The notes: generated by a model from the sequence alone, not told the origin. A stretch of 64,000 bases of DNA from Candidatus Levybacteria bacterium RIFCSPLOWO2_12_FULL_41_12 (GCA_001784155.1 MFPL01000006.1:87280-151279); one strand, 5' to 3'; counted from the first letter of the stretch, positions 40,677 to 53,213 are shown. Translations and numbers: made by a program.

Positions 40677-40919
40677 GTGAATTATTGGATTTACGTTCTT
40701 GAAAATGAGATTGGGCGATGGTATATTGGCCAAACAAATAATTGGAAGTTGCGGATTGAAAAACATAATAGTCAAAAGGTAAAATCAACTAAGAATAGGG
40801 GGATTTGGAAATTGATTTATAAGAAAGGGTTTAAAACAAGATCAGAAGCAATGAGACATGAAGAATATTTAAAATCTGGGGCAGGAAGAAGATACCTGAA
40901 AGAGTTATTAAACAGATAA
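40677..40919 (+). CDS. GIY-YIG nuclease-family protein (YhbQ/UPF0213-like)
   Basis: 80 aa. 'YWIYVLENEIGRWYIGQTNN…RIEKHN' is a GIY-YIG core. Paralogous to the ORF at 51619. Confidence 0.75.
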   Translation: MNYWIYVLENEIGRWYIGQTNNWKLRIEKHNSQKVKSTKNRGIWKLIYKKGFKTRSEAMRHEEYLKSGAGRRYLKELLNR

Positions 40920-40929
40920 CTAACAGGGC

Positions 40930-41001
40930 TCCGCAGTAGCTCAACGGTAGAGCAGATCCCTGTTAAGGATAAGGTTCTAGGTTCGAATCCTAGCTGCGGA
41001 G
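40930..41001 (+). tRNA. tRNA-Asn (anticodon GUU)
   Basis: Hand-folded cloverleaf:
- acceptor: TCCGCAG paired with CTGCGGA
- U8 and A9 present
- D-stem: GCTC paired with GAGC
- anticodon stem: GATCC paired with GGATA (one G·A mismatch)
- anticodon loop: CU-GUU-AA
- T-arm: CTAGG-TTCGAAT-CCTAG
- discriminator: G
The 3' CCA is not encoded. Confidence 0.85.
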
Positions 41002-42477
41002 CCCTGTTGGATTATCAGTGTAATTGAGGATAGCGTCAAAGGGTTTTAGCAGGCTATATTTGACTAATCGTCCATCTAATACAGAGTTCTGAAGTATTAA
41101 CTTCAAAAGTTGCCTCTTTTCTTCTATTTCCGAACTTACGAACAAATTATAAGCGTTTTGAAGAAGCCGTAGAATGTATTCTGAGGTCAAATAGTAGTCG
41201 TCTTCGGCTTTCTGAAGATTAAATAGCTTAGTATCAATTTCGTCTATCTTTAGCTTAAAGGCTTTATACATTTTGTCATACCCATCGGCAGTAATACGCC
41301 CATCAAGTCTGTCTAAATACATTTCCTCAATCCTTTTTGCGTATTTTTCTTTTTCCTCGCTTAATTTCTTAACCTGTTCTTCTCTAAATTCGCTTTTACC
41401 CAGATGAACATTTCTAAGCGTTTCAATGGTTTCGTCTACCACACCCTCTGGCAACTGCAATTTTTTGAATAACTTCCCGAACTGTTCGGTTATATCTTCC
41501 TCACGAAGCCACTCTGCGTTGTGCTTGCCTTTATATTGAGTGCAGTGATAGTAAACATACTTATCTTTAGCCTTTTCAGGCGTTATCATACACCCGCAAT
41601 CGGCACAGCGAATAAGACCCCTATACATATAAGGCAACCCAGCGAATTTGAAGTGTTTTTTGTTGTATCCAGCCTTAATCTGTTGAACCTTGTCAAAAAG
41701 CTCTTTTGAAATAATCGTTTGGTATTTGTGTGAATAAAGTTTTCCCTTACTTAACATTTCCCCATAATAGAAAGGTTGCTTAAGGATAAAATCTACATAG
41801 CTGTTTGAAAAATTAAGATTGTAATCAGCTTTTAACTTTTCTCTTATGAGACGCATTGAAAATGCACCGGATGAATACCATTCATACATTTTTAGGACTA
41901 TTTTAGATTCAAATTCATCAGGCACTATATCTTTCTTTTCATTTTCTAAAGTAATGTTTTTATAGCCGTAAGGAGCTTTTCCAATCCATTGACCGCTTCT
42001 TAGCATTTGCTCTTGAGCCCTTTTAACATTGTCGCTTATTGCATCCGAGAAGTATTTCGCAAGCCCTAAACTAATACCAAACTGAAACTTTTCAACTGCT
42101 GATATTTGGCTGTTTATAACCTGCCCGTCTGATGGAAAATGTAGTTCTACCTCGTCTCTCAATGCCTTCTCGTATAGCGTTGCAACCCTTACATCAAAAA
42201 CATTCCTTGATAGTCTATCTACCTTATCAAAACAGACAACCATCTTTTCTTTTTGTCCAATTACGAAGTCTAAAATTTCGTCAAAGTCTTCTCTTTGGTC
42301 TTTATAAGCACTTTCATCAAAACTAAATTTCTTAATAATTTCGTATCCTTTTTTCTGGCAATATCCTTCAAGACGAGCTATCTGAGCAGGAAGAGAATTG
42401 CCTGCATCTTTTTGTTCTTCTGTTGATACACGAGCTATAATTATCGCTTCCATAATTAAAACTTTATTCTTTCCCAT
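40990..42477 (-). CDS. large serine recombinase (integrase)
   Basis: 495 aa. Resolvase catalytic domain 'IIARVSTEEQ…VDRLSRN', recombinase domain and Zn-ribbon 'CADCGCMITPEK…YYHC'. The stop overlaps the tRNA-Asn 3' end. The true start may be the internal Met at 42453. Confidence 0.85.
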   Translation of the reverse strand: MGKNKVLIMEAIIIARVSTEEQKDAGNSLPAQIARLEGYCQKKGYEIIKKFSFDESAYKDQREDFDEILDFVIGQKEKMVVCFDKVDRLSRNVFDVRVATLYEKALRDEVELHFPSDGQVINSQISAVEKFQFGISLGLAKYFSDAISDNVKRAQEQMLRSGQWIGKAPYGYKNITLENEKKDIVPDEFESKIVLKMYEWYSSGAFSMRLIREKLKADYNLNFSNSYVDFILKQPFYYGEMLSKGKLYSHKYQTIISKELFDKVQQIKAGYNKKHFKFAGLPYMYRGLIRCADCGCMITPEKAKDKYVYYHCTQYKGKHNAEWLREEDITEQFGKLFKKLQLPEGVVDETIETLRNVHLGKSEFREEQVKKLSEEKEKYAKRIEEMYLDRLDGRITADGYDKMYKAFKLKIDEIDTKLFNLQKAEDDYYLTSEYILRLLQNAYNLFVSSEIEEKRQLLKLILQNSVLDGRLVKYSLLKPFDAILNYTDNPTGLRS

Positions 42478-44726
42478 CCCTTTGCAGTCGTATTTTTGTT
42501 ATATTTGGCACCTTCATGAACGAACATTCCAGCCGATTTTGAGATTACTATTCCGCCAATAAGTTTCCTTGCCTTGTTTTTCCGAATGTAATCGTGTAAA
42601 ACATTTGCTTTCACTACAGTTTCATCACTTTCTGCGTGGATGCCTGATTTTGTATCGTAAATGCCTATTTTATCTTTGAAGAAAACTATGTAATCCGGAT
42701 AAAAAGAATGTTGTAATCCATCTTGAGGATGGATGTAGGGTATAGCAAAATATACTTCTTTATTCGTTCCATTTTTATACCAATAAAGAACAGATTTACT
42801 CTTGCTTATCATTTCTTCAAACTTCTGTTCTGGAATGCTACGAGAAGTTCTAAGATAACATGGACTCAGAGAATAATTCTTAACTTCAACCTTTTCGTGT
42901 AATTCATTGAAGTATTCTACCTCTGGAACATCCCAAAGCAATTCTTTCTTAACTTGCTTAGCTTCTTTATCTTTTCTATCTAATTCTTTGAATCTTTCTT
43001 TTGCCGACTCAATAATTTCCTTGAAGATTTTTTGATTGGATTCGGAACAAATTACAATTCTCTGAATTTCAATTCTACTAACATCTCCATAACCTAAGTA
43101 GTTATCAAACCAATCATATAAGCCTTGTTGAATCTTTGTGTGCGAACGAACAGGAGCATAAGGCAAGGAGCACGCTTTAGCAAAAAACTCAAACTTAAAT
43201 TTCAAATCGTCTTCCGACATAGTAAAGTTAACAATCTTTCCAATAACATTTTCTACATCGTCAATTCCTTGAAGGATAACATCGGAAATTATGGGTGTTG
43301 TTAATTCTTTTGGTAATAATTCAAGTTCCTTGTCAGCCTTCTTTTTGGCGACAGCTGGCATGTCTTTTTCCTTAATCCCAAAATACTTATTTGCTTCCTC
43401 TATTAGAAGTTTTCTAAAAGACAAGGTAAGGTCACCATAATCTATTCTTCTAAGGTATGTTGATGGAAGTTTTACTTCTTTATATTTTCCGATTCTATGA
43501 GCGGGTTGTATACGAAAGAAGGATTTGCTCTCAGAATCTTTTGCAATCTGAATCTTCGGTAGATTACTGTATACAAAGCCTTGATTTAATTCATCACTGT
43601 CGTAATGTTTCGCCTCAGGCATCCTCAAAATCCTTCCTACAGTTTGTATTTCAAAAGTCACGCTTTTTATGTCACGAAACATAATTAAGATTTGAGCACG
43701 AGGACAATCCCACCCTAAAGCTATTGCCTGCTTGAAAATAAGAACACGAACACCGTCATCGTTATTTGATATAGTCTCAATGTTTTCTTTCCTGTCAGAT
43801 AACCAAATTCCTAAAAGTCCATTTCCTACAGTTATATTATGTTTTGCATGCAAATATCTCATCACAAATATAATTTTTCTCACATCAAGAGCACTCATAG
43901 TTTCGCTTTCATTAGGCAGTTGAATAAGAATTAAGGGATTTATCTTTAATCTATTTTTATAAAGTTCAATAAGTTCTTTTTGTTTAGCGAGTGCAGATTC
44001 TAAAATAACCTCATCTGCAACGGAATTGAAGTCTTTATATTTTCCTATTTCCTCATTTATAACAACATCCTTTTTTATCATGCCCTGTTCTATTACATCC
44101 TCAAACTTAACAGAAATGTAACCAGCGTCTTCATTAGCAATATCCTCTGGTTTTGGCTCAAGTTTTGGAGTTGCAGAAACCTCAATTGTGAGCTTAGGAG
44201 CTATGACATCTTGCACAAGATTCTGTGATTTTTCTGACCAATAATGATAATGGCTCTCATCAACAATTAGTATTATTTGTAAGCCCTTTTCTTTTGTGTT
44301 GTTTATGAAAGTCCGGAGATTTCTATCATTTTCGTTTTCTCGCATATATAGATTGGTATACTCACCAGTTCTTCTATCTTGTTTTATAAGGCTATGCCAG
44401 TTAACAAAAGCAATTTCATTTTCTTTCAGTTCGTTATTTTGAATATCATCAAGATAGGAAAATGTATATCTGCTGGGATTAAGGTAATCTTCTAATTTTC
44501 CTCTGCTCTGTTTATGTAAATCGTTTCCGCTAATCCATAAGAAAGCATACTTAGAAGGTAATTGTTCATCTGCAAGATTTCTAAGGTAATCTGCTACAAC
44601 AATAGTTTTTCCAGAACCTGTAGGAGCCTTGAATACACATACTCTTTGACCATCTTTTGCAAGAAGAATCCTGCTGGCTTTCAGCAATTTATCTACTGCT
44701 GTTTCTTGGTAACGCTTAAGTTTCAT
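42456..44726 (-). CDS. res: Type III restriction enzyme Res subunit (SF2 helicase + PD-(D/E)xK nuclease)
   Basis: 756 aa. 'APTGSGKT', 'DESHYHYW', and a C-terminal 'PDYIVFFKDK…YDTKSG' nuclease motif. Immediately downstream of mod. Confidence 0.75.
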   Translation of the reverse strand: MKLKRYQETAVDKLLKASRILLAKDGQRVCVFKAPTGSGKTIVVADYLRNLADEQLPSKYAFLWISGNDLHKQSRGKLEDYLNPSRYTFSYLDDIQNNELKENEIAFVNWHSLIKQDRRTGEYTNLYMRENENDRNLRTFINNTKEKGLQIILIVDESHYHYWSEKSQNLVQDVIAPKLTIEVSATPKLEPKPEDIANEDAGYISVKFEDVIEQGMIKKDVVINEEIGKYKDFNSVADEVILESALAKQKELIELYKNRLKINPLILIQLPNESETMSALDVRKIIFVMRYLHAKHNITVGNGLLGIWLSDRKENIETISNNDDGVRVLIFKQAIALGWDCPRAQILIMFRDIKSVTFEIQTVGRILRMPEAKHYDSDELNQGFVYSNLPKIQIAKDSESKSFFRIQPAHRIGKYKEVKLPSTYLRRIDYGDLTLSFRKLLIEEANKYFGIKEKDMPAVAKKKADKELELLPKELTTPIISDVILQGIDDVENVIGKIVNFTMSEDDLKFKFEFFAKACSLPYAPVRSHTKIQQGLYDWFDNYLGYGDVSRIEIQRIVICSESNQKIFKEIIESAKERFKELDRKDKEAKQVKKELLWDVPEVEYFNELHEKVEVKNYSLSPCYLRTSRSIPEQKFEEMISKSKSVLYWYKNGTNKEVYFAIPYIHPQDGLQHSFYPDYIVFFKDKIGIYDTKSGIHAESDETVVKANVLHDYIRKNKARKLIGGIVISKSAGMFVHEGAKYNKNTTAKGWERIKF

Positions 44727-46399
44727 TTGAATAATTTCCTATATACCTCCAATATGCTTTCAGGAATAGGACATAATTCGTGCTTTAATTCTAAATCTTC
44801 AAAGTCCTCATTAAAAGTATCATTTGTTAGAGAAAAAACATAAATACTAGCGGGAAGGTTTTGCTCTTTTAGCTTCTTCTTTAGTTCATCTAAATCATCT
44901 AAGTTAAATAAAATTCCAGTTGTATGCTTAGCATCTTTATAAATCTTAAAACCAGTCTTATCAAGAACTTTTTCAAAGGTGTTTTCTCTAATACATATCA
45001 TTTCTGTTGAGCGTTTAACTAATTCTTTCCTTGTATCGTCAGACACTTTAGACTTTGATACGAAAGAAGTTTTGAAATATCTTAAGTTAATTGGAATCCC
45101 AGTTAAATCTTCTAGACCTGAAACGCTTTTCGTAATAGCTTTAATCCTTTTGTAGGTAACATTCTCTGCGATATTGTTCTCATTGTTTGTGCAGAGGATA
45201 AATTGCCTCTTAAGACCATCCTTTTTATTGAGGATTGCTACTGCATGACCAGTCGTTCCAGAACCTGCAAAGAAATCAAGAATAATTGGTTGCCTCCTTT
45301 TTTTTGTTGCATAAGAGATAAAATCTATCATTGTATAAATTGATTTTGGAAATGGAAAATCAGTATCAGGCAACAATTTTTTTAAGAACATTGTTCCATG
45401 CGGTCCTGCATTATATCTTGAATCAAACCAATTACTGTAAACTGGTTTATAAACCTTGCTTCTTTTTTTTATCACTTTCATTGATAAGTTAGGAAGCGAA
45501 GCCTTGATTTCCTGTTTTGAAATTAAATCAATCATTGTCTCCCTTCCGTATCGCCATCTTCTTTCTCCGCCATTTCCATCAAGGGGATAAACTCTCTTGT
45601 ATCCCTCTGGAGTATCTTCCGTAGGATATTTTTCATCTTTTTTCAATTCTTCCCCGACACCTTTAATTTGTCCTGTTTTTTTATCTACTAGAATAGCAAA
45701 AAACATTCGTGGTCTTCCTATTCTATAGTAATCATTACCAGCACCTGCCTTGAGTAGGCTCCATTCTTCCGTGACTTCTTCAATGTAATCCCCTAAGAAT
45801 AGGTTTTTCCCTTTAGGAACTGAGACAATTGCATATTCATGTGTTGCTGAAATGTTAAGACCTCCTGAACCTTGAGGATGATGATTAACAACAACCACCT
45901 CATGCGTATACGAGGGCAGTATTTCTTCAAGTAACAATTTCAGATTTGCAAATTCATTATCGTCAATAGCACAGATAAGAATCCCATCCTCTGTTAATAG
46001 ATTTCTAGCAAGTGTAAGCCTGTGATGCATCATGTTAATCCATTTGCTATGTCTATAGTTATCATTACTATCTACATAATGATTGTTATATTTCCAATCT
46101 TTAGCTCCAGTATTGTAAGGAGGGTCAATATATATAACATCTATCTTTCCAGCATGGGTATAATTTAAAACCGAAAGTGAATGATAATTATCTCCTTCAA
46201 TTATTAAATTAGTAGGTAAGCCTTCATCTTTTTGTATAGCTTTATCTTTTGATTCTTCAAGGACTGGTAACTCTTTTTTACATTGCTCAACGACATCCTC
46301 AGGCTTATCTTCCCAAACTAAACCATATTTTTTACGCTTTTTAACTTCCTTAACAAGGGCAACCAATTCTTCCTTTGTCATGTCATCTATTTTTTTCAT
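44723..46399 (-). CDS. mod: Type III R-M Mod subunit (beta-class N6-adenine DNA methyltransferase)
   Basis: 558 aa. Motif IV 'IYIDPPYN' precedes motif I 'FAGSGTTG'. Contains two A8 homopolymer tracts. Confidence 0.8.
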   Translation of the reverse strand: MKKIDDMTKEELVALVKEVKKRKKYGLVWEDKPEDVVEQCKKELPVLEESKDKAIQKDEGLPTNLIIEGDNYHSLSVLNYTHAGKIDVIYIDPPYNTGAKDWKYNNHYVDSNDNYRHSKWINMMHHRLTLARNLLTEDGILICAIDDNEFANLKLLLEEILPSYTHEVVVVNHHPQGSGGLNISATHEYAIVSVPKGKNLFLGDYIEEVTEEWSLLKAGAGNDYYRIGRPRMFFAILVDKKTGQIKGVGEELKKDEKYPTEDTPEGYKRVYPLDGNGGERRWRYGRETMIDLISKQEIKASLPNLSMKVIKKRSKVYKPVYSNWFDSRYNAGPHGTMFLKKLLPDTDFPFPKSIYTMIDFISYATKKRRQPIILDFFAGSGTTGHAVAILNKKDGLKRQFILCTNNENNIAENVTYKRIKAITKSVSGLEDLTGIPINLRYFKTSFVSKSKVSDDTRKELVKRSTEMICIRENTFEKVLDKTGFKIYKDAKHTTGILFNLDDLDELKKKLKEQNLPASIYVFSLTNDTFNEDFEDLELKHELCPIPESILEVYRKLFK

Positions 46400-46400
46400 A

Positions 46401-46568
46401 TTATTTTTGCTTTAAAAATTTTTCCAAATCTTCCCTTCTTATCCTATATTGCTTTCCCGCCTTTAAGGCAATAAGTTTCTTTGCTCGTATCCATCTATAG
46501 ACGGTAAGGTAGGCGACATTAAGCATTTGAGAAACTTCTTCAATAGAATAAAACTGTTCTTCTTTCAT
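46401..46568 (-). CDS. excisionase-family HTH DNA-binding protein (Xis-like)
   Basis: A 55-aa ORF not in the track. MKEEQFYSIEEVSQMLNVAYLTVYRWIRAKKLIALKAGKQYRIRREDLEKFLKQK has the MerR/Xis-type HTH pattern (…s.eEva..L.vs..TvyrW.r.g.l.a.k.G…ri…dle.fl). Confidence 0.55.
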   Translation of the reverse strand: MKEEQFYSIEEVSQMLNVAYLTVYRWIRAKKLIALKAGKQYRIRREDLEKFLKQK

Positions 46569-47173
46569 ATTTTTAACCAATTTCTAATATCGCTCCACAT
46601 ATTCTCTTTTTCATTTTCCCAGTTGAGACAAATATAATCAAAGTGATAAAGCATTCTTCTGAAGGAAATGCTTTCTTCCGCTTTTGAATGACCCTCAAAA
46701 TTGTCAAATGCAAACATTGCCTTAACTTTTGGAAATAGTCTTTTAATATCGCCGGATATTACATTTGCGGAAATTGCATCGTGACTTGGGAAATTTGATA
46801 GCTTACTCGTGGTTCTTCTTGTAGCTTTTTTAAGCTCCATAATAATCGCTGGAACAATAATGTTTCCTCTTACCATTACGCCCGTTGTTTTTACAAAATC
46901 CCCAATTAGTTTTTCTCTTGGAATTGTCTGCTCATAGATGATTACATCTATTTCTTGTGCACCGCCATATAGCTTCCATTCTCCATCTTTTGTTTTGAAA
47001 AAGGAGAAATCACGAAGAATATAATTGTCCGAAGCATCGCTCTCATAGCCTCCTATTACTTTTATGGTTTTATTATCTATGCTTTTTAATTTTTCCCGTA
47101 AGAAACGGACGACTTCTCTGTTAAATTCCTGCTCCGTAGCAAAGATAGTATTTCGCATATCCTTATTTATCAT
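46565..47173 (-). CDS. hypothetical protein with putative PD-(D/E)xK nuclease motif
   Basis: 202 aa. 'EIDVIIYEQ' followed about 35 aa later by 'VPAIIMELKK', giving a D…E.K pattern. Inference only. Confidence 0.4.
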   Translation of the reverse strand: MINKDMRNTIFATEQEFNREVVRFLREKLKSIDNKTIKVIGGYESDASDNYILRDFSFFKTKDGEWKLYGGAQEIDVIIYEQTIPREKLIGDFVKTTGVMVRGNIIVPAIIMELKKATRRTTSKLSNFPSHDAISANVISGDIKRLFPKVKAMFAFDNFEGHSKAEESISFRRMLYHFDYICLNWENEKENMWSDIRNWLKI

Positions 47174-48308
47174 TATTTATCATTTCAGCTTCAAAGTCAA
47201 CTAGGCTTAATGGTTCAAACTGTTCTATGCTCTGCCTAATAGGTTTGAATACATCAAGAGAATTTTTAGGATAATTATAGCTGTTCATTTGAGAATTAAA
47301 ATCATACCAACTGTTTCTAGGATGTTTTTTTAGTAGTTCTCGTAATTCTCTTGGATTATTTTCTTCCAATGCTTTACGAAAGCCTAAGGCTGTAAATACA
47401 TCTTTTATTTTTGTTTTGGTATTGTCTATTTCAAACTGAGCAATAAAATCTTTGCTTGATTTTGGGTCAAAATAAAGAGGTTTTGGGTATCCTTTTTCAA
47501 TATCTTCAAGATAGCTTAGAAGTATTTTTTGAGCAATTTCCTTTTTAAATATATTTTGAAAAGTTGGTTCTACCTTATATCCATTATCACTGAGCACTTT
47601 CCTCAATTTTTGCCTTGTGTTGATTCTTAACTCCATTCTCAAAACTTCAAAAGGCTTGTGTTTTCTTGCTTCTTGAATGTCGCTAAAAAGATTCATTTGA
47701 AGGGAATTATCTTTTTCTATTGCCCTTTTTTCGCTAATTTTTGCTTGCTCCAAATCTTTTATTTTGTCATAGAATGTTAATTCCCATGTATTGGCATGCC
47801 ATTTAATTGAATGTCCTTCATTTCTAAAATCTGATTGGTTGAAATCAAGCCTCTTCGTTATGTTGGCTTTGCTTAGTTCTTTTAAAACTGTGAAGGCAAT
47901 CAATCCATTTGTTAGTTTGATATTTTTAGAATAATGAACTGACGAAACTGGTGCTTTTATGAAAAGTTCCCAAAACACTTTGACTCCCATTTCGCTTAGC
48001 TTTGTTTGTAATAACTTAGCAACTGCTTTAAAATTCTCATCATCTAATTCTTCAAAATTATTTCCATAAAGCAACTTAGGTAAGGATAACTCTATTGAAA
48101 GGGTTGGTTCAAAGCGACCAGAGGAATTAAACCTTTTTTGTAAAGTTAATTTTGGTTTGTATATTCCGCTCATCAACTCTGATTTAGTCGGGTTTTGGAC
48201 AAGTGAAAAAAATCCTCTCGCAGAGTTCATAGTGTCTTTTTGAAATCGCCCAATATCTGTTACAAAAAACATATTATTTTCCAAAACTATTTTCACTGTA
48301 TCTATCAT
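47163..48308 (-). CDS. hypothetical protein (possible replication-initiator-like cargo protein)
   Basis: 381 aa. No confident motif. The Rep-like idea rests only on its size and its mobile-element context. Confidence 0.4.
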   Translation of the reverse strand: MIDTVKIVLENNMFFVTDIGRFQKDTMNSARGFFSLVQNPTKSELMSGIYKPKLTLQKRFNSSGRFEPTLSIELSLPKLLYGNNFEELDDENFKAVAKLLQTKLSEMGVKVFWELFIKAPVSSVHYSKNIKLTNGLIAFTVLKELSKANITKRLDFNQSDFRNEGHSIKWHANTWELTFYDKIKDLEQAKISEKRAIEKDNSLQMNLFSDIQEARKHKPFEVLRMELRINTRQKLRKVLSDNGYKVEPTFQNIFKKEIAQKILLSYLEDIEKGYPKPLYFDPKSSKDFIAQFEIDNTKTKIKDVFTALGFRKALEENNPRELRELLKKHPRNSWYDFNSQMNSYNYPKNSLDVFKPIRQSIEQFEPLSLVDFEAEMINNDK

Positions 48309-48564
48309 TTTTCATTACATCTTCAAACTCTTTGATGACCTCCTTTTCTATTGATTTTGCGAAAACTTTGTTTATCGGATGGAAAATATTTATATTTCTT
48401 TCTCCTACTTTCTTTGTCGGGTATACTAACCGGTAACCGCCTTCTGGTCGTGTCAGAATGCCAATAGAACCTAAATATAGGCTCTCGTTTAATACGAAGC
48501 TCGCAAAGGCAACTAAGCCATTCTGTGGCTTAATAGGAATAATCTGAATTTCAGTTATTTTCAT
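48274..48564 (-). CDS. SpoVG-family nucleic-acid-binding protein
   Basis: 96 aa. 'ITEIQIIPIKPQNGLVAFASFVLNESLYLGSIGILTRPEGGYRLVYPTKK…INIFHPINK' parallels SpoVG (VTDVRL…G.L.A.ASIT.D..FV.HDIRVI.G..GLFVAMPS.R…..DIAHPI). Confidence 0.6.
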   Translation of the reverse strand: MKITEIQIIPIKPQNGLVAFASFVLNESLYLGSIGILTRPEGGYRLVYPTKKVGERNINIFHPINKVFAKSIEKEVIKEFEDVMKNDRYSENSFGK

Positions 48565-48722
48565 TATTTTCTTTTCTTAGTTCTCTGGTCTATTTCAACC
48601 AAAAGACCCATAAACTTTACAAATCTATCTTTATATTCCCTTACTTCTTCGTCAGATAATTTCTTTCCATACATCTGCTCTAAGAAGTTTTTAAGTTTTT
48701 GCTTGCTGTCTGCTTTTTCCAT
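48564..48722 (-). CDS. possible 52-aa small protein
   Basis: Short ORF not in the track (MEKADSKQKLKNFLEQMYGKKLSDEEVREYKDRFVKFMGLLVEIDQRTKKRK). Fits the minus-strand operon. Speculative. Confidence 0.3.
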   Translation of the reverse strand: MEKADSKQKLKNFLEQMYGKKLSDEEVREYKDRFVKFMGLLVEIDQRTKKRK

Positions 48723-48826
48723 TAGGATAAGCGTGCTACCTCAATAAGCGTTGAGGTCAAGATTTAGGACATTTAGGTTATGAGGGTAAATTTGAAACCT
48801 CTATAGAGATTTCAAACCTAAAGGGG

Positions 48827-50233
48827 TTAAGGTTTTGGCAGTATTTTAATTCTGTATGCACCCACGGCTGGCTTATCTTCTGCGTTGTCGTCTTGTGTAG
48901 ATACTATAATTATTTTTTTCTTTGCTTCTTCGGGCATTCTATCTTCAATCTGTTTTATAGTTGAGCGAACATATCCAACATCTTTATTGCCTTTCATCTC
49001 ATTTATAGTAGCCCAACCGCCTTTTTTATCAGTAAGTGCCTTAAATATGTGTCTTCTATCTTCACTATTAAAGTCAATTTTCCCTAAAGTTCCAAAAACG
49101 AAACTATTACCTTCCCATCTAAAATCATCTTGCCAAGAAATTTTACTTTTATTTGTTTTTTCAAGAGCTTTGGTTGTTATTTGCTGATTTTCATTTTTTT
49201 GAATGAGCACCGGCTTATCTACGAGTTTATTTCCCCTAGACTTAATAGCTTTTACTTTATCAAGTAGATCATAATAGCTATTTATATTTAGCGTTATCTC
49301 TGCATCAAGAGACATTTCTCTATGTAGATAATCTATTATTACGCCTATTTTCTTTAGATAATCTAAAACTTTAATATAGCCACCTGTTAAGTCATCAATG
49401 TCTGAAGTATCATAGCCCTCAACATCGTGAAATGATGAAACGAAACTAAAGTTTATTTTATCTGATTGGACTATTTGCAATTGTTCTTCAATTTGCGTTA
49501 GCACAAGATAGATTTCGTTGAGATTACTTTCCGTAAGATTTTCTATACTTGTCCTGCGTTGAATTAAATAATTTGAATGCCATCTATGAAACTCAGGAAT
49601 ATCCAGCAAAAAATAATGAGTTGGCTGTTGATTAGGGGGTAGAAGTCTATTGTTTAATGGGTGGACTTTAAGAGCTTTCTCGTCTTGGAGTTGGAGAAGA
49701 ATGTTGCGTATTTCCTCTCTCGGTAATCGGTCTAACCCGTTTGTAGCATTTAAGTAAAGTGTTGCCGTAAAAAAGCCTTTGTGAAGAGTTTTACTAGCCT
49801 CTACTACCGCTTTAACGATAAGGTCTAGTTTTTCCTCATAGGTCATTACGGCGTTGCTGTTGGGCTTCGTTTGGCTACCTGCGGGCTTTTTGCCTGTAAA
49901 CTCTTGGTATTCTAGTTCTTGTTGGATTTTCAAGAAGTAGCTGTCAAAGGCTGGTAGAAGCTTTATATGCCAGCAACCATCGTCTGCGTGGTCGTAGGGG
50001 TCGGGGTCAAGTTCACCAAGAGTTGAATTTGCTCTCTTTGATGCTTTTAAGACTTTCAAAACCCGTTCGTCTTTTTCTAACTTGGCAAACAGTTGTGATA
50101 ATTCAACATCTCTGAAATTGCCATTCAGGTCGTTCATGGGGTCTATTTTCAAAGGTTGACCAGAAGGGGCTATAGTCCTTGCGTCGTCAATTGCGTCTAG
50201 GAGAAAGTAGAGTTTTTCTTTACCGTTCATCAT
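48827..50233 (-). CDS. hypothetical acidic protein (468 aa), first gene of the island cargo block
   Basis: Long ORF with an amino-acid composition typical of this genome. No recognisable domain. Confidence 0.5.
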   Translation of the reverse strand: MMNGKEKLYFLLDAIDDARTIAPSGQPLKIDPMNDLNGNFRDVELSQLFAKLEKDERVLKVLKASKRANSTLGELDPDPYDHADDGCWHIKLLPAFDSYFLKIQQELEYQEFTGKKPAGSQTKPNSNAVMTYEEKLDLIVKAVVEASKTLHKGFFTATLYLNATNGLDRLPREEIRNILLQLQDEKALKVHPLNNRLLPPNQQPTHYFLLDIPEFHRWHSNYLIQRRTSIENLTESNLNEIYLVLTQIEEQLQIVQSDKINFSFVSSFHDVEGYDTSDIDDLTGGYIKVLDYLKKIGVIIDYLHREMSLDAEITLNINSYYDLLDKVKAIKSRGNKLVDKPVLIQKNENQQITTKALEKTNKSKISWQDDFRWEGNSFVFGTLGKIDFNSEDRRHIFKALTDKKGGWATINEMKGNKDVGYVRSTIKQIEDRMPEEAKKKIIIVSTQDDNAEDKPAVGAYRIKILPKP

Positions 50234-50286
50234 AATTCATTACATTTTCAGTAGCAGTATTGTAATATTTTGCTAATATATACTCA

Positions 50287-50460
50287 ATGGTTGATATTAA
50301 AAGAGCGAGGGAATTATTAGGCAAAAGGGGCGAGCGGATGACTGATGAGGAAATTATGAGGGTTGAGGAGCAAATGAGAATCTGGGTAAATATAATAATT
50401 GATAGAGTTTTAGAAGATAAAAGAAATGGTGTGATGAAACATAAAAAACCGAGGGTGTAA
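50287..50460 (+). CDS. possible 57-aa small protein
   Basis: ORF not in the track (MVDIKRARELLGKRGERMTDEEIMRVEEQMRIW…). Preferred over the overlapping junk-like minus-strand ORF 50220..50501. Low confidence. Confidence 0.25.
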   Translation: MVDIKRARELLGKRGERMTDEEIMRVEEQMRIWVNIIIDRVLEDKRNGVMKHKKPRV

Positions 50461-50469
50461 CACCCTCGG
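50449..50469 (+). terminator. perfect 9-bp hairpin CCGAGGGTG-taa-CACCCTCGG
   Basis: Seen directly in the sequence. Not followed by a U-run, so at best a weak terminator or a structural element. Confidence 0.35.
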
Positions 50470-50549
50470 TTGACTTCTCGCAGACCCCTCTCTAACCACA
50501 AGCTATTTCCCCGACTTATTGTATATTGTTTTTGTGCTATAATTTAGAT

Positions 50550-51152
50550 ATGAAAAGTGCTACCCCCAAGAAAAAATTAAAAGAGCTAATAGTCTACATC
50601 GCAACTAAATGTAGCAATGACGAAAACTACGGAGAAACTAAACTGAATAAAATTCTTTATTATTCTGACTTTCTTTACTTTTTTAAGACATACAAGCCAA
50701 TCACTGGTCACGAGTATGTGCATCTTCCAAATGGACCAATTCCTAATGATATGAAAAAAATCTTAAAAGAAATGGAAGGAAAGGATATAAGCATTGCAAT
50801 CTCAAGGTCGGGTCCATATACACAACATAGAATAATTGCTTTAAGAGAAGCTGATTTAAGTTTATTTAGTGCGGATATGATTTCCCATGTTGATTCAATT
50901 ATTGATGAGGTCTCCAACAAATATCCTCTGACTGCCAGTCAATTAAGCGAATTGAGCCATAGGAATATGGGTTGGATTGTAACCTCAAACGGAGAAACCA
51001 TTCCGTATCAAACAGTATTTGTAAAAGATAAGAAACACCAAGTTGCAACAGAACGAGAAGTAGGAAAAGCTAAGGAAATAGCAAAGGAGTATGCAGGCAG
51101 GTATGGATACCCCAAAGATACCCAAAACATTAGAGGAGTCTCCTCGTTATAA
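50550..51152 (+). CDS. Panacea-domain (DUF4065, SocA-like) antitoxin
   Basis: 'KLKELIVYIATKCSNDENYGETKLNKILYYSDFLYF…TGHEYVHLPNGPIP' matches the Panacea/DUF4065 pattern. Start chosen at the ATG 6 nt after 'gcTATAAT' (50538-50543). The track start at 50526 is a TTG. Confidence 0.6.
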   Translation: MKSATPKKKLKELIVYIATKCSNDENYGETKLNKILYYSDFLYFFKTYKPITGHEYVHLPNGPIPNDMKKILKEMEGKDISIAISRSGPYTQHRIIALREADLSLFSADMISHVDSIIDEVSNKYPLTASQLSELSHRNMGWIVTSNGETIPYQTVFVKDKKHQVATEREVGKAKEIAKEYAGRYGYPKDTQNIRGVSSL

Positions 51153-51387
51153 ACAGAACATAAAGAAAATCAACAAGAACACAAAAGCTCTTGATGTTCA
51201 TCTTGTTGGTGCAACTTTTACCATTGCTTGTAAAGCAGACGAATATCCTTTGCTTGATGCTTTTGGCACGAGGTCAATAAAAATTGATGGTCAAGGGAAA
51301 ATCCCACCTATAACAATATACTTTAAGGAATTTGAGGAAAAGATTGTTTTACTTGATGTAGAGGAAACACCTGAAATAATTTCTTAA
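51103..51387 (+). CDS. small protein partnered with Panacea antitoxin (candidate toxin, RelE/ParE-like C-terminus?)
   Basis: About 94 aa, overlapping the antitoxin 3' end in a different frame. The C-terminal 'PITIYFKEFEEKIVLLDVEE' is reminiscent of RelE/ParE terminal strands. Inference. Confidence 0.35.
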   Translation: MDTPKIPKTLEESPRYKQNIKKINKNTKALDVHLVGATFTIACKADEYPLLDAFGTRSIKIDGQGKIPPITIYFKEFEEKIVLLDVEETPEIIS

Positions 51388-51440
51388 ACTTAAGACTTAA
51401 GTGGTTATTGGAAGATTGAGGTTGGAATATAGAATTTTTA

Positions 51441-51497
51441 AGTCTTCTAAGCTATAATCAAACTCAATCCCTTTGTTAATGAATAAGTCCTTTAGGG
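51441..51497 (+). repeat. about 57-nt intergenic repeat, copy A (contains TATAAT)
   Basis: 'agtcttctaagcTATAATcaaactcaatccctttgttaatgaataagtccttta' aligns at roughly 85% with copy B at 53093-53152. Confidence 0.8.
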
Positions 51498-51538
51498 GGA
51501 GCCCTGTTAAACTGGACCAACGGTGACGTTTTACGTCA

Positions 51539-51558
51539 TTCGAGTCCTAGTCGCGGAG
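51539..51558 (+). repeat. degenerate direct repeat of tRNA-Asn 3' end (putative attR of the island)
   Basis: 'TTCGAGTCCTAGTCGCGGAG' versus the tRNA 'TTCGAATCCTAGCTGCGGAG': T-loop, T-stem 3' strand and acceptor 3' strand. A further 'GGAGCCCTGTT' at 51498-51508 matches the tRNA 3' end plus its flank. Confidence 0.6.
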
Positions 51559-51618
51559 CAATCTTTCGCTAAAACTACAGAATTGCATGCAGTTACGTAG
51601 TAAAATACGAAGTGTTGC

Positions 51619-51930
51619 ATGCATTACTGTTATATTCTGCTAAGTTCAAAATCCCACACATTTTATTTTGGTTCAACTAATAATTTAAAAATAAGATTAA
51701 CTCTTCATAATAATGGCGAGGTAAGGTCAACAAAGCCACACATTCCTTGGAAACTTGTTTGGTATGGAGGATTTCAGACAGAAAAGGAAGCTAGAGATTT
51801 TGAACTTTATCTAAAAACAGGGTCAGGAAAAGCATTTGCATACAAAAGATTAGTCAATGTAGCTTTGGAGAAAGATTTTTCGAGTGGCAGACGTAGTAGT
51901 CCGAAGTCAAAAAAGACGAAGGATACCTAG
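51619..51930 (+). CDS. GIY-YIG nuclease-family protein (paralogue of 40677..40919)
   Basis: 103 aa. 'YCYILLSSKSHTFYFGSTNNLKIRLTLHNNG…STKPHIPWKLVWYGGFQTEKEARDFELYLKTGSG' aligns position-by-position with the upstream paralogue. Confidence 0.75.
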   Translation: MHYCYILLSSKSHTFYFGSTNNLKIRLTLHNNGEVRSTKPHIPWKLVWYGGFQTEKEARDFELYLKTGSGKAFAYKRLVNVALEKDFSSGRRSSPKSKKTKDT

Positions 51931-51941
51931 TCACGGAGCAA
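51926..51941 (+). repeat. tRNA-3'-end-like motif 'CCTAGTCACGGAGCAA' (copy 2)
   Basis: Shares the CCTAG…CGGAGCAA core with 51539-51560 and 52538-52562. Overlaps the stop codon of the GIY-YIG gene. Confidence 0.5.
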
Positions 51942-52017
51942 GTTAACCATTGCCTTGAATATTTTTTTCTGGTTCACGCCTCTTTTTTATGCTAAAATCA
52001 GTCTTGTGGAAGAAGCA

Positions 52018-52476
52018 ATGCCTAGAGGTAAACTCACGGCTGTTAAAGAAAGTCTTGAAGATAATCTGCTTTGGAATGGGCCGCAAAGTGTTGGTACTGC
52101 CCGCGTACTCCACGTCGAACACCCGATGCATGACATGGTATTTATTGACTGTGGTGGCGATGATATTACTGCTCATGAGTTTGTATTTACTGCTCCGGGT
52201 AAAATAAAAAAAAATCAAATTGTCGAAGTTATTGTTAGGACAAAAAAACAACTAAGAAAACCGTTTACATTTCCTGATTGTCAGGTAGCTATTAGACCCT
52301 ATACACAAGAAACCTATGGGAAAATAACAGCTGAGGATAGGGCTACATTAAGACCTACGTTTGAATATGATTCTAACAGAAAAGATGCTTTTTTCTCGCG
52401 AGCTTTTTATCGAAGATTCTTCCCCGGAGGAAGAAGCACTCTTAAACCTTTTCCTGATGTATCAGGTTCTGAATGA
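52018..52476 (+). CDS. hypothetical protein
   Basis: Start taken at the internal ATG (MPRGKL…), preceded by 'gcTAAAAT'. No domain recognised. Confidence 0.45.
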   Translation: MPRGKLTAVKESLEDNLLWNGPQSVGTARVLHVEHPMHDMVFIDCGGDDITAHEFVFTAPGKIKKNQIVEVIVRTKKQLRKPFTFPDCQVAIRPYTQETYGKITAEDRATLRPTFEYDSNRKDAFFSRAFYRRFFPGGRSTLKPFPDVSGSE

Positions 52477-52537
52477 TTATTGTAATTACAAAAATTAATT
52501 GCCGATTATAGGACTCAAACGAACTATAGCGTTGAAG

Positions 52538-52562
52538 GGTCCTAAGTAGGCTCGCGGAGCAA
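52538..52562 (+). repeat. tRNA-3'-end-like motif 'GGGTCCTAAGTAGGCTCGCGGAGCAA' (copy 3)
   Basis: Same CGCGGAGCAA core. Lies in the intergenic region. Confidence 0.5.
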
Positions 52563-52596
52563 CTTAGCCTCAGAATAAAGTGATATAATCTAATTT

Positions 52597-53082
52597 ATGA
52601 AACCAAAATTTATTCCCCAAGAGCTATTTGATTTTATAGATAGAGCAGGAAAAGCAACTTATGCAGGCGGTGGAAAATATGAGCAGAATCCAGAAAGACC
52701 TGGATTTTTTGAATTAGTTTACGATAAAGAATTACCTTGGTATTACAGAGATAGCTATGCGGGACATTCCAGATCTGGAGGACAAGAAGTTGTTAGGTTA
52801 AATGATGAACCAATTTGGTGGTCAGGTTATGGTGGAGGTATGGTTGAAGGAAAAGAAAATATGTCCGACCAAACTTTTGATTTCCTCAAGAAAGCGTTAT
52901 CACAAGACGAAGAAGGATTTGGATCTTTAAGAGGTCCGCATGAATTAACAGATGGAGATTGGAAATATACCTATACCCAAGACGGAGATATTACAGATTT
53001 TTATGGATATGAAGAAATTTCTTATAAAGGAGAGCGAGTATTCTGGCATAGGGCGGTTGGAGGGATACTAAAGCATAAATAG
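52597..53082 (+). CDS. hypothetical protein
   Basis: 161 aa, preceded by TATAAT at 52584-52589. Gly/Tyr/Trp-rich. No confident family. Confidence 0.5.
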   Translation: MKPKFIPQELFDFIDRAGKATYAGGGKYEQNPERPGFFELVYDKELPWYYRDSYAGHSRSGGQEVVRLNDEPIWWSGYGGGMVEGKENMSDQTFDFLKKALSQDEEGFGSLRGPHELTDGDWKYTYTQDGDITDFYGYEEISYKGERVFWHRAVGGILKHK

Positions 53083-53092
53083 AGCTTTTTCA

Positions 53093-53152
53093 AATCTTCT
53101 AGACTATAATCAAACTCAATCCTTCTGTTGATGAATAAGACCTTCAGGCGGA
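53093..53152 (+). repeat. about 57-nt intergenic repeat, copy B (contains TATAAT and a 'GGCGGAGCA' motif)
   Basis: 'aatcttctagacTATAATcaaactcaatccttctgttgatgaataagaccttcaggcggagc'. Confidence 0.8.
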
Positions 53153-53213
53153 GCACGAGTCGATAATTATCGCTAAAAATAGTATAATATAAAGTAAGAA
53201 AGGAGGTATATTA

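What the first reader, a model, noticed from the sequence alone, without database searches (positions are those of the whole stretch)
40930..51558. About 10.6 kb integrative island at tRNA-Asn, led by a large serine recombinase
A complete tRNA-Asn(GUU) at 40930-41001 is directly abutted by a large serine recombinase gene on the opposite strand, and the recombinase stop overlaps the tRNA 3' end. About 10.5 kb downstream, a 20-nt degenerate copy of the tRNA T-loop/acceptor 3' strand ('TTCGAGTCCTAGTCGCGGAG', 51539-51558) plus 'GGAGCCCTGTT' (51498-51508) repeats the tRNA end and its flank, as expected for attL/attR. Every gene in between is on the minus strand as one tight operon-like array:
- unknown 468 aa
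- small ORF
- SpoVG-like
- unknown 381 aa
- PD-(D/E)xK-like
- Xis-like HTH
- Type III mod
- Type III res
- recombinase
A Panacea toxin-antitoxin pair lies at the far end. Using a large serine recombinase for tRNA-targeted integration is uncommon, since tRNA sites are typically used by tyrosine integrases. The element is a compact defense island in a small-genome, probably CPR, host.
Basis: partly seen in the sequence, partly recalled or inferred. Interest (0 to 1): 0.7.

Follow-up and report, generated by a model that had tools for sequence, protein, structure and literature searches.

The report
Serine-integrase element split at tRNA-Asn
A 10.5-kb mobile element carrying restriction and toxin-antitoxin genes sits at the end of a tRNA-Asn gene in a Levybacteria (CPR) genome, inserted by a serine integrase whose own gene loses its last ~33 codons each time it integrates, which has not been described for serine integrases.

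Summary
tRNA-Asn(GUU) lies at 40930-41001. A 495-aa large serine recombinase (LSR, 40990-42477, minus strand) ends inside the tRNA 3' end. Both tRNA-end repeats are far beyond chance.

The true junction repeat is the 11-mer GGAGCCCTGTT (40998-41008 and 51498-51508), not the 20-nt copy. That copy lies 30 nt outside the element and is a relic of an older tRNA-Asn.

In 79 related loci from CPR and Dependentiae, 61 LSR genes run into a tRNA 3' end (Asn, Glu, Asp, Gln, Arg). A conserved ~77-nt distal arm (window 51427-51504) marks the far end. In two apparently circular relatives this arm is fused to the LSR 3' end. The window's joined ends align gap-free with one of them.

Read in frame with the LSR, the arm encodes a conserved 32-43-codon tail. 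So attP lies inside the integrase gene, and integration swaps the C-terminus.

The backbone also holds an excisionase-like HTH, a rolling-circle Rep_trans-fold protein and SpoVG. The cargo is a Type III restriction-modification system plus a Panacea pair.

This is a new variant of a known kind.

The parts
40930..41001 (+). tRNA-Asn(GUU), the integration target. There is no encoded CCA; the sequence runs ...GCGGAGCC|CTG.
   Evidence: ARAGORN. Rfam RF00005, 68.6 bits.
40998..41008 (+). attL core, GGAGCCCTGTT. It covers the last acceptor-stem bases, the discriminator and the start of the element. The crossover is inferred to lie within GGAGC.
   Evidence: Exact 11-mer, 0.02 expected by chance. 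The sister element L087 shares only GGAGCT at its two ends. The minimal shared core across Asn loci is GGAGC.
40990..42477 (-). Large serine recombinase, integrated (truncated) form, 495 aa. Its 3' end is the element-side arm of the attachment site (P').
   Evidence: Pfam Resolvase 5.6e-20, Recombinase 6.2e-10, Zn_ribbon_recom 2.8e-8. R16, S18, D84 and R88 are invariant in 18 homologues. The register CCA-n3-TTGAC-n-ATC...TCAAAGGG is fixed in 61 loci.
42456..44726 (-). Type III restriction subunit (Res), cargo.
   Evidence: Pfam ResIII 1.1e-17. PADLOC REase_III 1.8e-15.
44723..46399 (-). Type III modification methyltransferase (Mod), cargo.
   Evidence: Pfam N6_N4_Mtase 3e-24. PADLOC MTase_III 1.4e-72.
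46401..46580 (-). Excisionase-like HTH_17 protein, a backbone gene and candidate directionality factor or regulator.
   Evidence: Pfam HTH_17 7.6e-16. PHROG 66, excisionase/regulator, 3.3e-10. Homologues in 25 related loci.
46565..47173 (-). 202-aa ORF of unknown function, specific to this element.
   Evidence: No Pfam, PHROG or PADLOC hit. No homologue in related loci.
47163..48308 (-). 381-aa backbone protein with a Rep_trans-like fold, inferred to be a rolling-circle replication initiator or relaxase.
48274..48564 (-). SpoVG-like protein, backbone gene.
   Evidence: Pfam SpoVG 5.1e-11. Homologues in 31 loci.
48564..48722 (-). 52-aa backbone ORF.
   Evidence: Homologues in 6 loci.
48827..50233 (-). 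468-aa multi-winged-helix protein, a backbone gene and probable DNA-binding protein.
50287..50460 (+). 57-aa ORF of unknown function in the second cargo slot, called as a gene in source assemblies.
   Evidence: No Pfam, PHROG or PADLOC hit. No homologue in related loci. Called as a 57-aa gene in L001 and L096.
50526..51387 (+). Second cargo slot: Panacea-domain protein (50526-51152) and an overlapping 98-aa ORF (51091-51387), a putative toxin-antitoxin pair.
   Evidence: Pfam SocA_Panacea 4.5e-16. The partner has no family hit. Neither has a homologue in related elements.
51397..51504 (-). Severed C-terminal exon of the recombinase: (TGL)PLKDLFINKGIEFDYSLEDLKILYSNLNLPITT*. It joins the LSR ORF only in the excised form.
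   Evidence: Translation. In-frame stop-free run of 32-43 codons in 25 of 25 arms, against medians of 2 and 7 in the other frames. Differences by codon position are 0.42, 0.29 and 0.50. It is contiguous with the LSR in L094 (514 aa) and L016 (531 aa).
51427..51504 (+). Distal attachment-site arm (P arm). It ends in GGGGGAGCC, a mimic of the tRNA acceptor 3' strand.
   Evidence: nhmmer 72.9 bits; the arm is found in the correct orientation 6-11 kb from the LSR in more than 20 loci.
51498..51508 (+). attR core, GGAGCCCTGTT.
   Evidence: Joining 51503 to 41004 gives a sequence that aligns gap-free over 174 nt with the real attP of L094.
51539..51559 (+). Relic of an older tRNA-Asn 3' end, outside the present element.
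   Evidence: 3 mismatches to the window's own tRNA. 21/21 identical to the tRNA-Asn 3' end of sister species L087.
53079..53156 (+). Second, decayed P-arm copy, marking the end of an older degraded element (51560-53156: GIY-YIG, 173-aa ORF, DUF5680).
   Evidence: 83% identical 77-nt repeat. nhmmer 69 bits. Strain variant L098 diverges exactly after GGAGC at 53154.

Best explanation
Window 41003-51503 is one integrated copy of a roughly 10.5-kb mobile element. It belongs to a large family in CPR/Patescibacteria and Dependentiae.

Shown:
- The large serine recombinase ends inside the tRNA 3' end.
- The attachment core is the last few bases of the tRNA: acceptor 3' strand, discriminator and, in most family members, CCA. 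The window's own tRNA has no encoded CCA.
- The element's distal arm ends in a mimic of that tRNA end. The mimic changes with the tRNA targeted.
- The attachment site on the element (attP) lies inside the recombinase reading frame. The excised form encodes a full-length enzyme, predicted at 526 aa here.
- Integration cuts off the last 33 codons and leaves them 10.5 kb away at the other end of the element. The integrated gene instead ends in a few codons read from the tRNA antisense strand.
- The tRNA sequence is kept intact.

Inferred:
- Crossover occurs around tRNA positions 71-74.
- After excision the circle is replicated or mobilised by the Rep_trans-fold protein, together with the HTH_17, SpoVG and winged-helix proteins.
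- The C-terminus swap changes recombinase activity or directionality, as reported for the tyrosine integrase of phage Mx8.

Cargo: a slot between the HTH/Rep genes and the recombinase carries defence genes, here a Type III restriction-modification system. A second slot carries a Panacea toxin-antitoxin pair.
For: - In 61 of 79 homologous loci the LSR 3' end abuts a tRNA 3' end in convergent orientation. This count includes 6 tRNA-Asn genes hidden by group I introns.
- The distal arm is conserved in more than 20 loci. Its end co-varies with the target: GGGGGAGCCA for Asn, GGGGACGCCA for Glu, GGGGCAGCCA for Gln, CCGCCA for Asp, ACACCA for Arg.
- Contigs L016 (9230 nt, 75-nt terminal overlap) and L094 (9579 nt, 30-nt overlap) have the arm fused to the LSR end.
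- The window's predicted attP aligns gap-free with that of L094.
- The arm shows a coding signature in frame with the LSR.
- Distant relatives carry the tail contiguously.
- The Rep fold is supported.
- Cargo varies while the backbone is constant.
- The LSR catalytic residues are invariant.
Against: - No empty tRNA-Asn site and no circular junction of this particular element was found. Two metagenome scans and one viral scan gave 0 hits.
- Every contig of this species that was examined carries the island, so current mobility here is unproven.
- Terminal overlaps of the two 'circular' contigs could also come from tandem copies.
- The Rep assignment rests on fold only. Sequence identity to the solved structures is 9%, there is no Pfam hit, and the catalytic Tyr was not aligned residue by residue.
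- Any effect of the C-terminal swap on activity is inference.
- In the window and in L087 the otherwise conserved Trp/CCA at the junction is replaced.
Confidence: 0.85

Rival explanations
1. The island is a fixed, no longer mobile remnant, a domesticated defence island. The recombinase and end sequences survive only because insertion was recent.
For: All contigs recovered for this species from several sample sets carry it at the same place. No empty site or circle was found. The junction Trp/CCA is lost in this subclade. Decayed copies lie next to it.
Against: The LSR, the Rep-like gene, the HTH gene, both arms and the severed 33-codon exon are all intact. They closely resemble those of an apparently circular relative. 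An untranslated exon would be expected to decay, as the second copy at 53079-53156 has begun to.
Confidence: 0.25
2. The 20-nt T-loop/acceptor copy at 51539-51559 is the true right junction. This would be the classical tRNA-fragment repeat made by crossover inside the tRNA, as with tyrosine integrases.
For: It is a genuine tRNA-Asn 3' fragment in direct orientation.
Against: No tyrosine integrase is present. Conservation of the distal arm, and identity to the L094 attP, stop at 51503. The fragment matches a different acceptor stem from the one in the resident tRNA. In related loci the repeat is only 5-10 nt at the tRNA end.
Confidence: 0.04
3. The element is a temperate phage or phage satellite rather than a plasmid-like element.
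For: It integrates at a tRNA, encodes an excisionase-like protein and is small. Rolling-circle Rep proteins also occur in small phages.
Against: There are no capsid, terminase, portal or morphogenesis hits in PHROGs or Pfam. The largest unknown is a winged-helix protein. No relative of the Rep-like protein exists in 2.9 million IMG/VR contigs.
Confidence: 0.05
4. The distal arm is conserved only as a protein-binding DNA site, and the in-frame open reading frame across it is incidental.
For: Serine integrase sites are conserved DNA, and the arm shows a dyad partner (CCCTTTG / CAAAGGG) about 33 nt either side of the core.
Against: Conservation runs about 105 nt, roughly four times a half-site. 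All 25 arms are stop-free for 32-43 codons in that frame only. Third codon positions vary most. The peptide is conserved where the DNA is not. Distant relatives have the tail as ordinary C-terminal sequence.
Confidence: 0.08

Closest known systems
Large serine recombinases of phages and integrative elements (phiC31, Bxb1, A118, TP901-1, SPbeta SprA, CcrAB)
   Same: Same three-domain enzyme: resolvase domain with Ser nucleophile, recombinase domain, and zinc ribbon with a coiled-coil region. Short attachment sites with a small common core. A small accessory DNA-binding protein is encoded nearby.
   Different: The target is the 3' end of tRNA genes across a whole family, covering five tRNA identities. 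attP lies inside the integrase ORF, so the C-terminus differs between the integrated and excised states. Hosts are CPR and Dependentiae. Identity to solved LSRs is detectable only in the catalytic domain.
Integrases that extend across attP: Myxococcus phage Mx8 IntP/IntX and archaeal SSV-type 'suicidal' integrases
   Same: attP lies inside the integrase gene. Integration into a tRNA gene rewrites or splits the integrase, which in Mx8 changes its activity (PMC6070905; PMC4383910; PMC8371274).
   Different: Those are tyrosine recombinases. Here it is a serine recombinase, and only the last ~33 of 526 residues are exchanged, so the catalytic domain stays whole. A 2021 review states that self-disrupting recombinases are found only in archaea.
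tRNA-integrated genomic islands of tyrosine integrases (Islander type)
   Same: The island abuts a tRNA 3' end, the integrase gene sits next to the tRNA, the tRNA is kept functional, and accessory cargo is carried.
   Different: There is no tyrosine integrase. The repeat is 5-11 nt at the very end of the tRNA, rather than a displaced fragment running from the anticodon loop or T-loop.
Integrative mobilisable elements and pSAM2-type elements (integrase + excisionase + rolling-circle Rep/MobT relaxase, about 10 kb, at tRNA 3' ends)
   Same: Similar size and gene logic: integrase, Xis-like protein and a Rep_trans-fold protein, with no transfer apparatus of its own.
   Different: The Rep-like protein is not recognised by Pfam or by relaxase profiles. 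No FtsK-like or coupling protein is present. Transfer has not been shown.
Tycheposons of Prochlorococcus
   Same: Small cargo-carrying elements at tRNA genes. A minority (27 of 937) use a large serine recombinase.
   Different: Tycheposons are overwhelmingly tyrosine-recombinase elements with different replication genes. No homology to them was tested here.

Membership tests
Large serine recombinase (serine integrase) | N-terminal resolvase catalytic domain with the serine nucleophile and conserved Arg/Asp residues | tested here: met
   PF00239 5.6e-20. R16, S18, D84 and R88 are invariant in 18 homologues. The RVST motif of homologue L094 aligns with that of TP901-1 integrase (3bvp).
Large serine recombinase (serine integrase) | Recombinase domain plus zinc-ribbon domain with a coiled-coil insertion | tested here: met
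   PF07508 6.2e-10 and PF13408 2.8e-8. Residues 336-453 give only a coiled-coil-type spurious hit. C291, C294 and C312 are invariant.
Large serine recombinase (serine integrase) | Short attP/attB with a small common core and a 2-bp staggered crossover | tested here: inconclusive
   The common core is 5-11 nt. The GTC/GAC dyad places the centre 4-5 nt before the CCA end. The cleavage position cannot be read from sequence.
Large serine recombinase (serine integrase) | Excision depends on a separate directionality factor | not testable with these tools
   An HTH_17 excisionase-like gene is conserved in 25 loci, but its role is unknown.
Integrases that span attP (Mx8 / SSV type) | attP lies inside the integrase ORF, so integration changes the gene product | tested here: met
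   The arm lies inside the LSR gene in L094 and L016. A conserved in-frame tail is present.
Integrases that span attP (Mx8 / SSV type) | Tyrosine recombinase chemistry | tested here: not met
   The enzyme is a serine recombinase. No Phage_integrase domain was found in any ORF of the island.
Classical tRNA genomic island (tyrosine integrase, Islander type) | A displaced tRNA fragment (from the anticodon loop or T-loop to the 3' end) as the direct repeat at the far end | tested here: not met
   The boundary repeat is 11 nt at the tRNA end. The 21-nt fragment lies 30 nt beyond the boundary and matches another acceptor stem.
Rep_trans rolling-circle initiators / MobT relaxases | Rep_trans fold | tested here: met
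Rep_trans rolling-circle initiators / MobT relaxases | Sequence membership (Pfam PF02486) and a catalytic Tyr in the conserved motif | tested here: inconclusive
   No Pfam hit even at E up to 10. No PDB sequence hit. FYDK with Y180 is invariant, but its equivalence to the RepD active-site Tyr rests on my recollection of that motif.
Type III restriction-modification system | Mod methyltransferase plus Res helicase-nuclease as adjacent genes | tested here: met
   PADLOC MTase_III 1.4e-72 and REase_III 1.8e-15. The genes overlap by 4 nt. A C-terminal PD..DTK nuclease motif was seen by eye only.
Panacea (PanA) toxin-antitoxin pair | Panacea-domain antitoxin with an adjacent toxin | tested here: inconclusive
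   SocA_Panacea 4.5e-16. The overlapping 98-aa partner has no family hit.
Prophage | Virion or packaging genes | tested here: not met
   No structural PHROG or Pfam hit. No relatives in IMG/VR.

The most novel reading that the evidence does not exclude
This would be the first serine-integrase family, widespread in two host-dependent small-genome phyla, in which integration rewrites the integrase's own C-terminus.

The full-length enzyme, made only from the circle, would drive integration. The truncated enzyme, made from the chromosome, would have altered or no activity. That would be a built-in directionality switch, analogous to Mx8 IntP/IntX and the archaeal 'suicidal' integrases.

In addition, the unannotated Rep_trans-fold protein (more than 1400 homologues) could be the 'very different relaxase' that a 2025 study proposed might explain why Patescibacteria type IV secretion systems appear to lack relaxases (PMC12102498).
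Probability: 0.3. Interest if true: 0.9.

Novelty: new variant of a known kind. Interest (0 to 1): 0.8.

Why it matters
- Serine integrases are prized genome-engineering tools because their sites are short and the reaction is one-way. How direction is set remains an active question.
- A natural family whose C-terminus is swapped by the reaction itself gives a direct test: compare the 526-aa and 495-aa forms on attP x attB and on attL x attR.
- It also overturns the working rule that tRNA genes are the preserve of tyrosine integrases. Here a whole clade targets five tRNA identities, with an attP core that mimics each tRNA end.
- It shows how CPR and Dependentiae, which have tiny genomes and few known mobile elements, exchange restriction-modification and other defence genes.
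- It supplies a candidate replication or transfer protein family that current profile libraries miss.

Tried and rejected
- **Whole-tRNA local alignment.** It gave the 51539 site the same score as chance sites. I replaced it with fixed-pattern searches against shuffles.
- **Crossover in the anticodon loop.** Some loci showed only a tRNA-Asn 3' half next to the recombinase, preceded by TGTAA. I rejected this because those tRNAs contain group I introns (Rfam RF00028, 52-105 bits), a known feature of Patescibacteria (PMC13011429).
- **TATAAT in the distal arm as an outward promoter.** It is more simply the codons F-D-Y-S of the recombinase tail on the other strand.
- **Long tRNA-fragment repeats as a family feature.** A search in 55 loci found them in only four.
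- **Empty site.** Two metagenome scans found nothing, one for the exact reconstructed attB and one gapped version.
- **Circular junction of this element in IMG/VR.** Nothing found.
- **Exact-protein look-ups of both flanks.** Only island-bearing contigs were returned.
- **Sequence searches for the 381-aa protein.** Pfam, PHROGs, PADLOC and PDB found nothing. Only the fold comparison worked.
- **P'-like 5' flank of the tRNA as a family trait.** The resemblance is unique to the window.

Full report
**The observation**

ARAGORN finds one tRNA in the window, tRNA-Asn(GTT) at 40929-41004. Rfam places it at 40930-41001 with 68.6 bits. The 495-aa ORF at 40990-42477 on the minus strand has Resolvase, Recombinase and Zn_ribbon_recom domains. 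Its last codons..NPTGLRS*, are read from the antisense of the tRNA 3' end.

The 21-mer at 51539-51559 is the only other place in the window within 3 mismatches of the tRNA T-loop/acceptor 3' strand; 100 shuffles gave none. The 11-mer GGAGCCCTGTT occurs exactly at 40998(+), 51498(+) and 40922(-), against 0.02 expected.

Pfam and PADLOC confirm the Type III Res and Mod genes, an HTH_17 excisionase-like protein, SpoVG and a Panacea-domain protein. GC is 0.32-0.36 from 41 kb to about 54 kb, against about 0.40 elsewhere. Database names and contigs identify the host as Candidatus Levybacteria, a CPR lineage.

**Family context**

The recombinase has more than 1800 homologues. A profile search of species-representative genomes returned 79 loci at 52-65% identity. 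They come from Patescibacteria and from Dependentiae/Babeliales.

In 55 of them ARAGORN finds a tRNA gene whose 3' end meets the recombinase 3' end within 30 nt, in convergent orientation:

| Target tRNA | Loci | Notes |
|---|---|---|
| Asn | 14 | plus 6 more with a group I intron in the tRNA |
| Glu | 15 | |
| Asp | 10 | |
| Arg | 9 | |
| Gln | 7 | |

The six intron-bearing cases have a tRNA-Asn 3' half next to the recombinase, preceded by a group I intron (Rfam RF00028, 52-105 bits). Such introns are a published feature of Patescibacteria tRNA-Asn genes (PMC13011429). The total is therefore 61 of 79. Four more loci end at a contig edge.

The conserved protein ends ..KPFDxILNxxDxQxW. The Trp codon is the reverse complement of the tRNA CCA. 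After it the ORF runs 12-66 nt or more into tRNA antisense until a chance stop. The Asn-targeting enzymes form one clade, whereas the Dependentiae enzymes are interleaved by target.

**The far end of the element**

A 77-nt stretch at 51426-51502 is repeated at 53078-53154. It has homologues in other loci at the far side of the recombinase. An HMM built from five copies finds this arm in the right orientation, 6-11 kb from the recombinase, in more than 20 loci. These include the sister Levybacterium L087, whose recombinase is 89% identical.

The arm always ends in a copy of the last 6-10 nt of the tRNA that the element sits in:

- GGGGGAGCCA for Asn
- GGGGACGCCA for Glu
- GGGGCAGCCA for Gln
- CCGCCA for Asp
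- ACACCA for Arg

The sequence shared by the two ends of one element is short. It is GGAGC in several Asn loci, GGAGCT in L087 and GGAGCCCTGTT in the window. The shared ranges intersect at positions -5 to -2 counted from the terminal A of CCA. A GTC/GAC dyad is centred between -5 and -4. I therefore infer a crossover in tRNA positions 71-74. The tRNA sequence is not changed by integration.

**Excised form**

Contig L016 is 9230 nt with a 75-nt terminal overlap. Contig L094 is 9579 nt with a 30-nt overlap. In both, the arm is joined directly to the recombinase 3' end, which is the attP configuration. Joining window 51410-51503 to 41004-41100 gives a sequence that aligns without gaps over 174 nt with the L094 attP. 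This fixes the boundaries of the window's element at about 41003 and 51503. Tandem copies could also produce such contigs; long reads would settle that.

**The recombinase gene spans attP**

The arm was read on the recombinase strand, in frame with the Trp codon. In all 25 copies examined it is stop-free for 32-43 codons (median 35). The other two frames have medians of 2 and 7. Pairwise differences by codon position are 0.42, 0.29 and 0.50.

The peptide (W)LPL[VK]DxFxN[RK]xIEF[DG][FY]SLxxIxTxxxxF is conserved between phyla where the DNA is not. In L094 and L016 the called or open ORFs are 514 and 531 aa and include this tail. More distant relatives at 31-38% identity carry the tail as ordinary C-terminal sequence.

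In the window the tail is on the minus strand at 51504 down to 51397: PLKDLFINKGIEFDYSLEDLKILYSNLNLPITT*, following the shared T-G-L. The excised element would thus encode a 526-aa enzyme and the integrated one a 495-aa enzyme ending ..TGLRS*.

Integrases that extend across attP are known for phage Mx8 and the SSV viruses, both tyrosine recombinases that integrate into tRNA genes. In Mx8 the change alters integrase activity. I found no report of this for a serine recombinase. Whether the swap regulates direction here is inference.

**Backbone and cargo**

tblastn of the window's proteins against the related loci gave these counts:

| Protein | Loci with a homologue |
|---|---|
| 381-aa protein | 61 |
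| SpoVG | 31 |
| HTH_17 | 25 |
| 468-aa protein | 13 |
| 52-aa ORF | 6 |
| Panacea pair, 57-aa and 202-aa ORFs | 0 |

Of the 82 related loci searched, only L015 shares this Type III system closely; L087 and L088 carry a distant one.

The gap between the Rep-like gene and the recombinase ranges from 77 nt to 6.7 kb. The slot contents sampled were:

- Type IIG enzymes
- Type I subunits
- an EcoRI-type methylase
- other N6 methylases
- an Mrr nuclease
- a large helicase
- an Erm-like rRNA methylase
- Type III systems

There are no virion genes, and the Rep-like protein has no relatives in IMG/VR. The element therefore behaves like an integrative rolling-circle plasmid or mobilisable element that shuttles defence genes. 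[quoted passage not shown] The Rep_trans-fold family here is a candidate, untested.

**What lies beyond the right end**

The 21-nt tRNA fragment at 51539-51559 is 21/21 identical to the tRNA-Asn 3' end of L087. It implies an acceptor stem different from that of the resident tRNA. It lies 30 nt outside the element.

The second arm copy at 53079-53156 still carries a recognisable but drifting tail ORF. A strain variant, L098, is 99.6% identical to the window from 45619 to 53154 and diverges exactly after the GGAGC core.

Together with the low GC to about 54 kb, this looks like a decayed tandem array of older elements. The history of the tRNA replacement is unresolved.

**Limits**

No empty site and no circular junction of this very element was found. 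All contigs of the species carry it. Activity of either recombinase form, the role of the HTH protein, and nicking by the Rep-like protein are untested.

**Verdict**

Its right boundary moves to about 51503. The finding opens onto an undescribed family of tRNA-end-targeting serine integrase elements whose integrase gene is rewritten by integration. This is a new variant of known kinds (serine integrase elements, and integrases that span attP). Interest 0.8.

Noticed in passing
window 40922-40932 (minus strand) and 40895-40929: A third exact copy of the att core lies in inverted orientation just 5' of the tRNA. It extends the acceptor stem by 8 bp. The reverse complement of the 5' flank resembles the element's P' arm for about 25 nt. 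This is unique to the window among 38 loci compared. It may be a relic of an inverted insertion at the acceptor-stem palindrome.
   Followed up: partly
window 40677-40919 and 51619-51930; L011, L023, L030; L068, L049, L034, L051, L043: Small GIY-YIG genes sit directly 5' of the tRNA-Asn. They also sit directly outside the element's far end, in both CPR and Dependentiae loci. In Dependentiae they are preceded by tandem hairpin-rich repeats of about 130 nt. They could be a host feature next to tRNAs or a hitch-hiking homing cassette.
   Followed up: partly
window 53079-53156; L098 7460-7536: A second, drifting copy of the distal arm. A strain variant that is 99.6% identical up to 53154 diverges exactly after the GGAGC core, and a methyltransferase gene follows instead of the CspA and SET genes. 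This is a strain-level recombination breakpoint at an att core.
   Followed up: partly
L008 11478-11692, L010, L017, L023, L033, L078: tRNA-Asn genes next to the recombinase carry group I introns and are missed by ARAGORN. This is a published feature of Patescibacteria (PMC13011429).
   Followed up: yes
L024 and L026, recombinase 3' end: Two elements abut ...TTCTCGAGCCA with no tRNA, while their far ends have ...GGGGAGCCA. These may be off-target or pseudo-site insertions sharing only GAGCCA.
   Followed up: no
L009 3417-4304 and L010 9109-9996: The cargo slot holds an rRNA adenine dimethylase (Erm/KsgA-like, PF00398 2.7e-49) instead of a restriction system.
   Followed up: no
loci L010-L012, L014, L015, L017, L023, L025 and others (titles): Many MAGs that carry this CPR/Dependentiae-type element are labelled 'uncultured Gammaproteobacteria/Pseudomonadota' in third-party assemblies. 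The labels look unreliable, or the contigs are mis-binned.
   Followed up: no
window 41001-41008; L087 attL: In the window and its sister element the otherwise near-invariant junction Trp codon/tRNA CCA is replaced (GCC|CTG, GCT|CTG). After integration, the tRNA-Asn therefore has no encoded CCA.
   Followed up: partly
L087 14869-17832: The DnaG primase of the sister Levybacterium carries an intein-splicing domain and is 987 aa, against 585 aa in the window's species.
   Followed up: no
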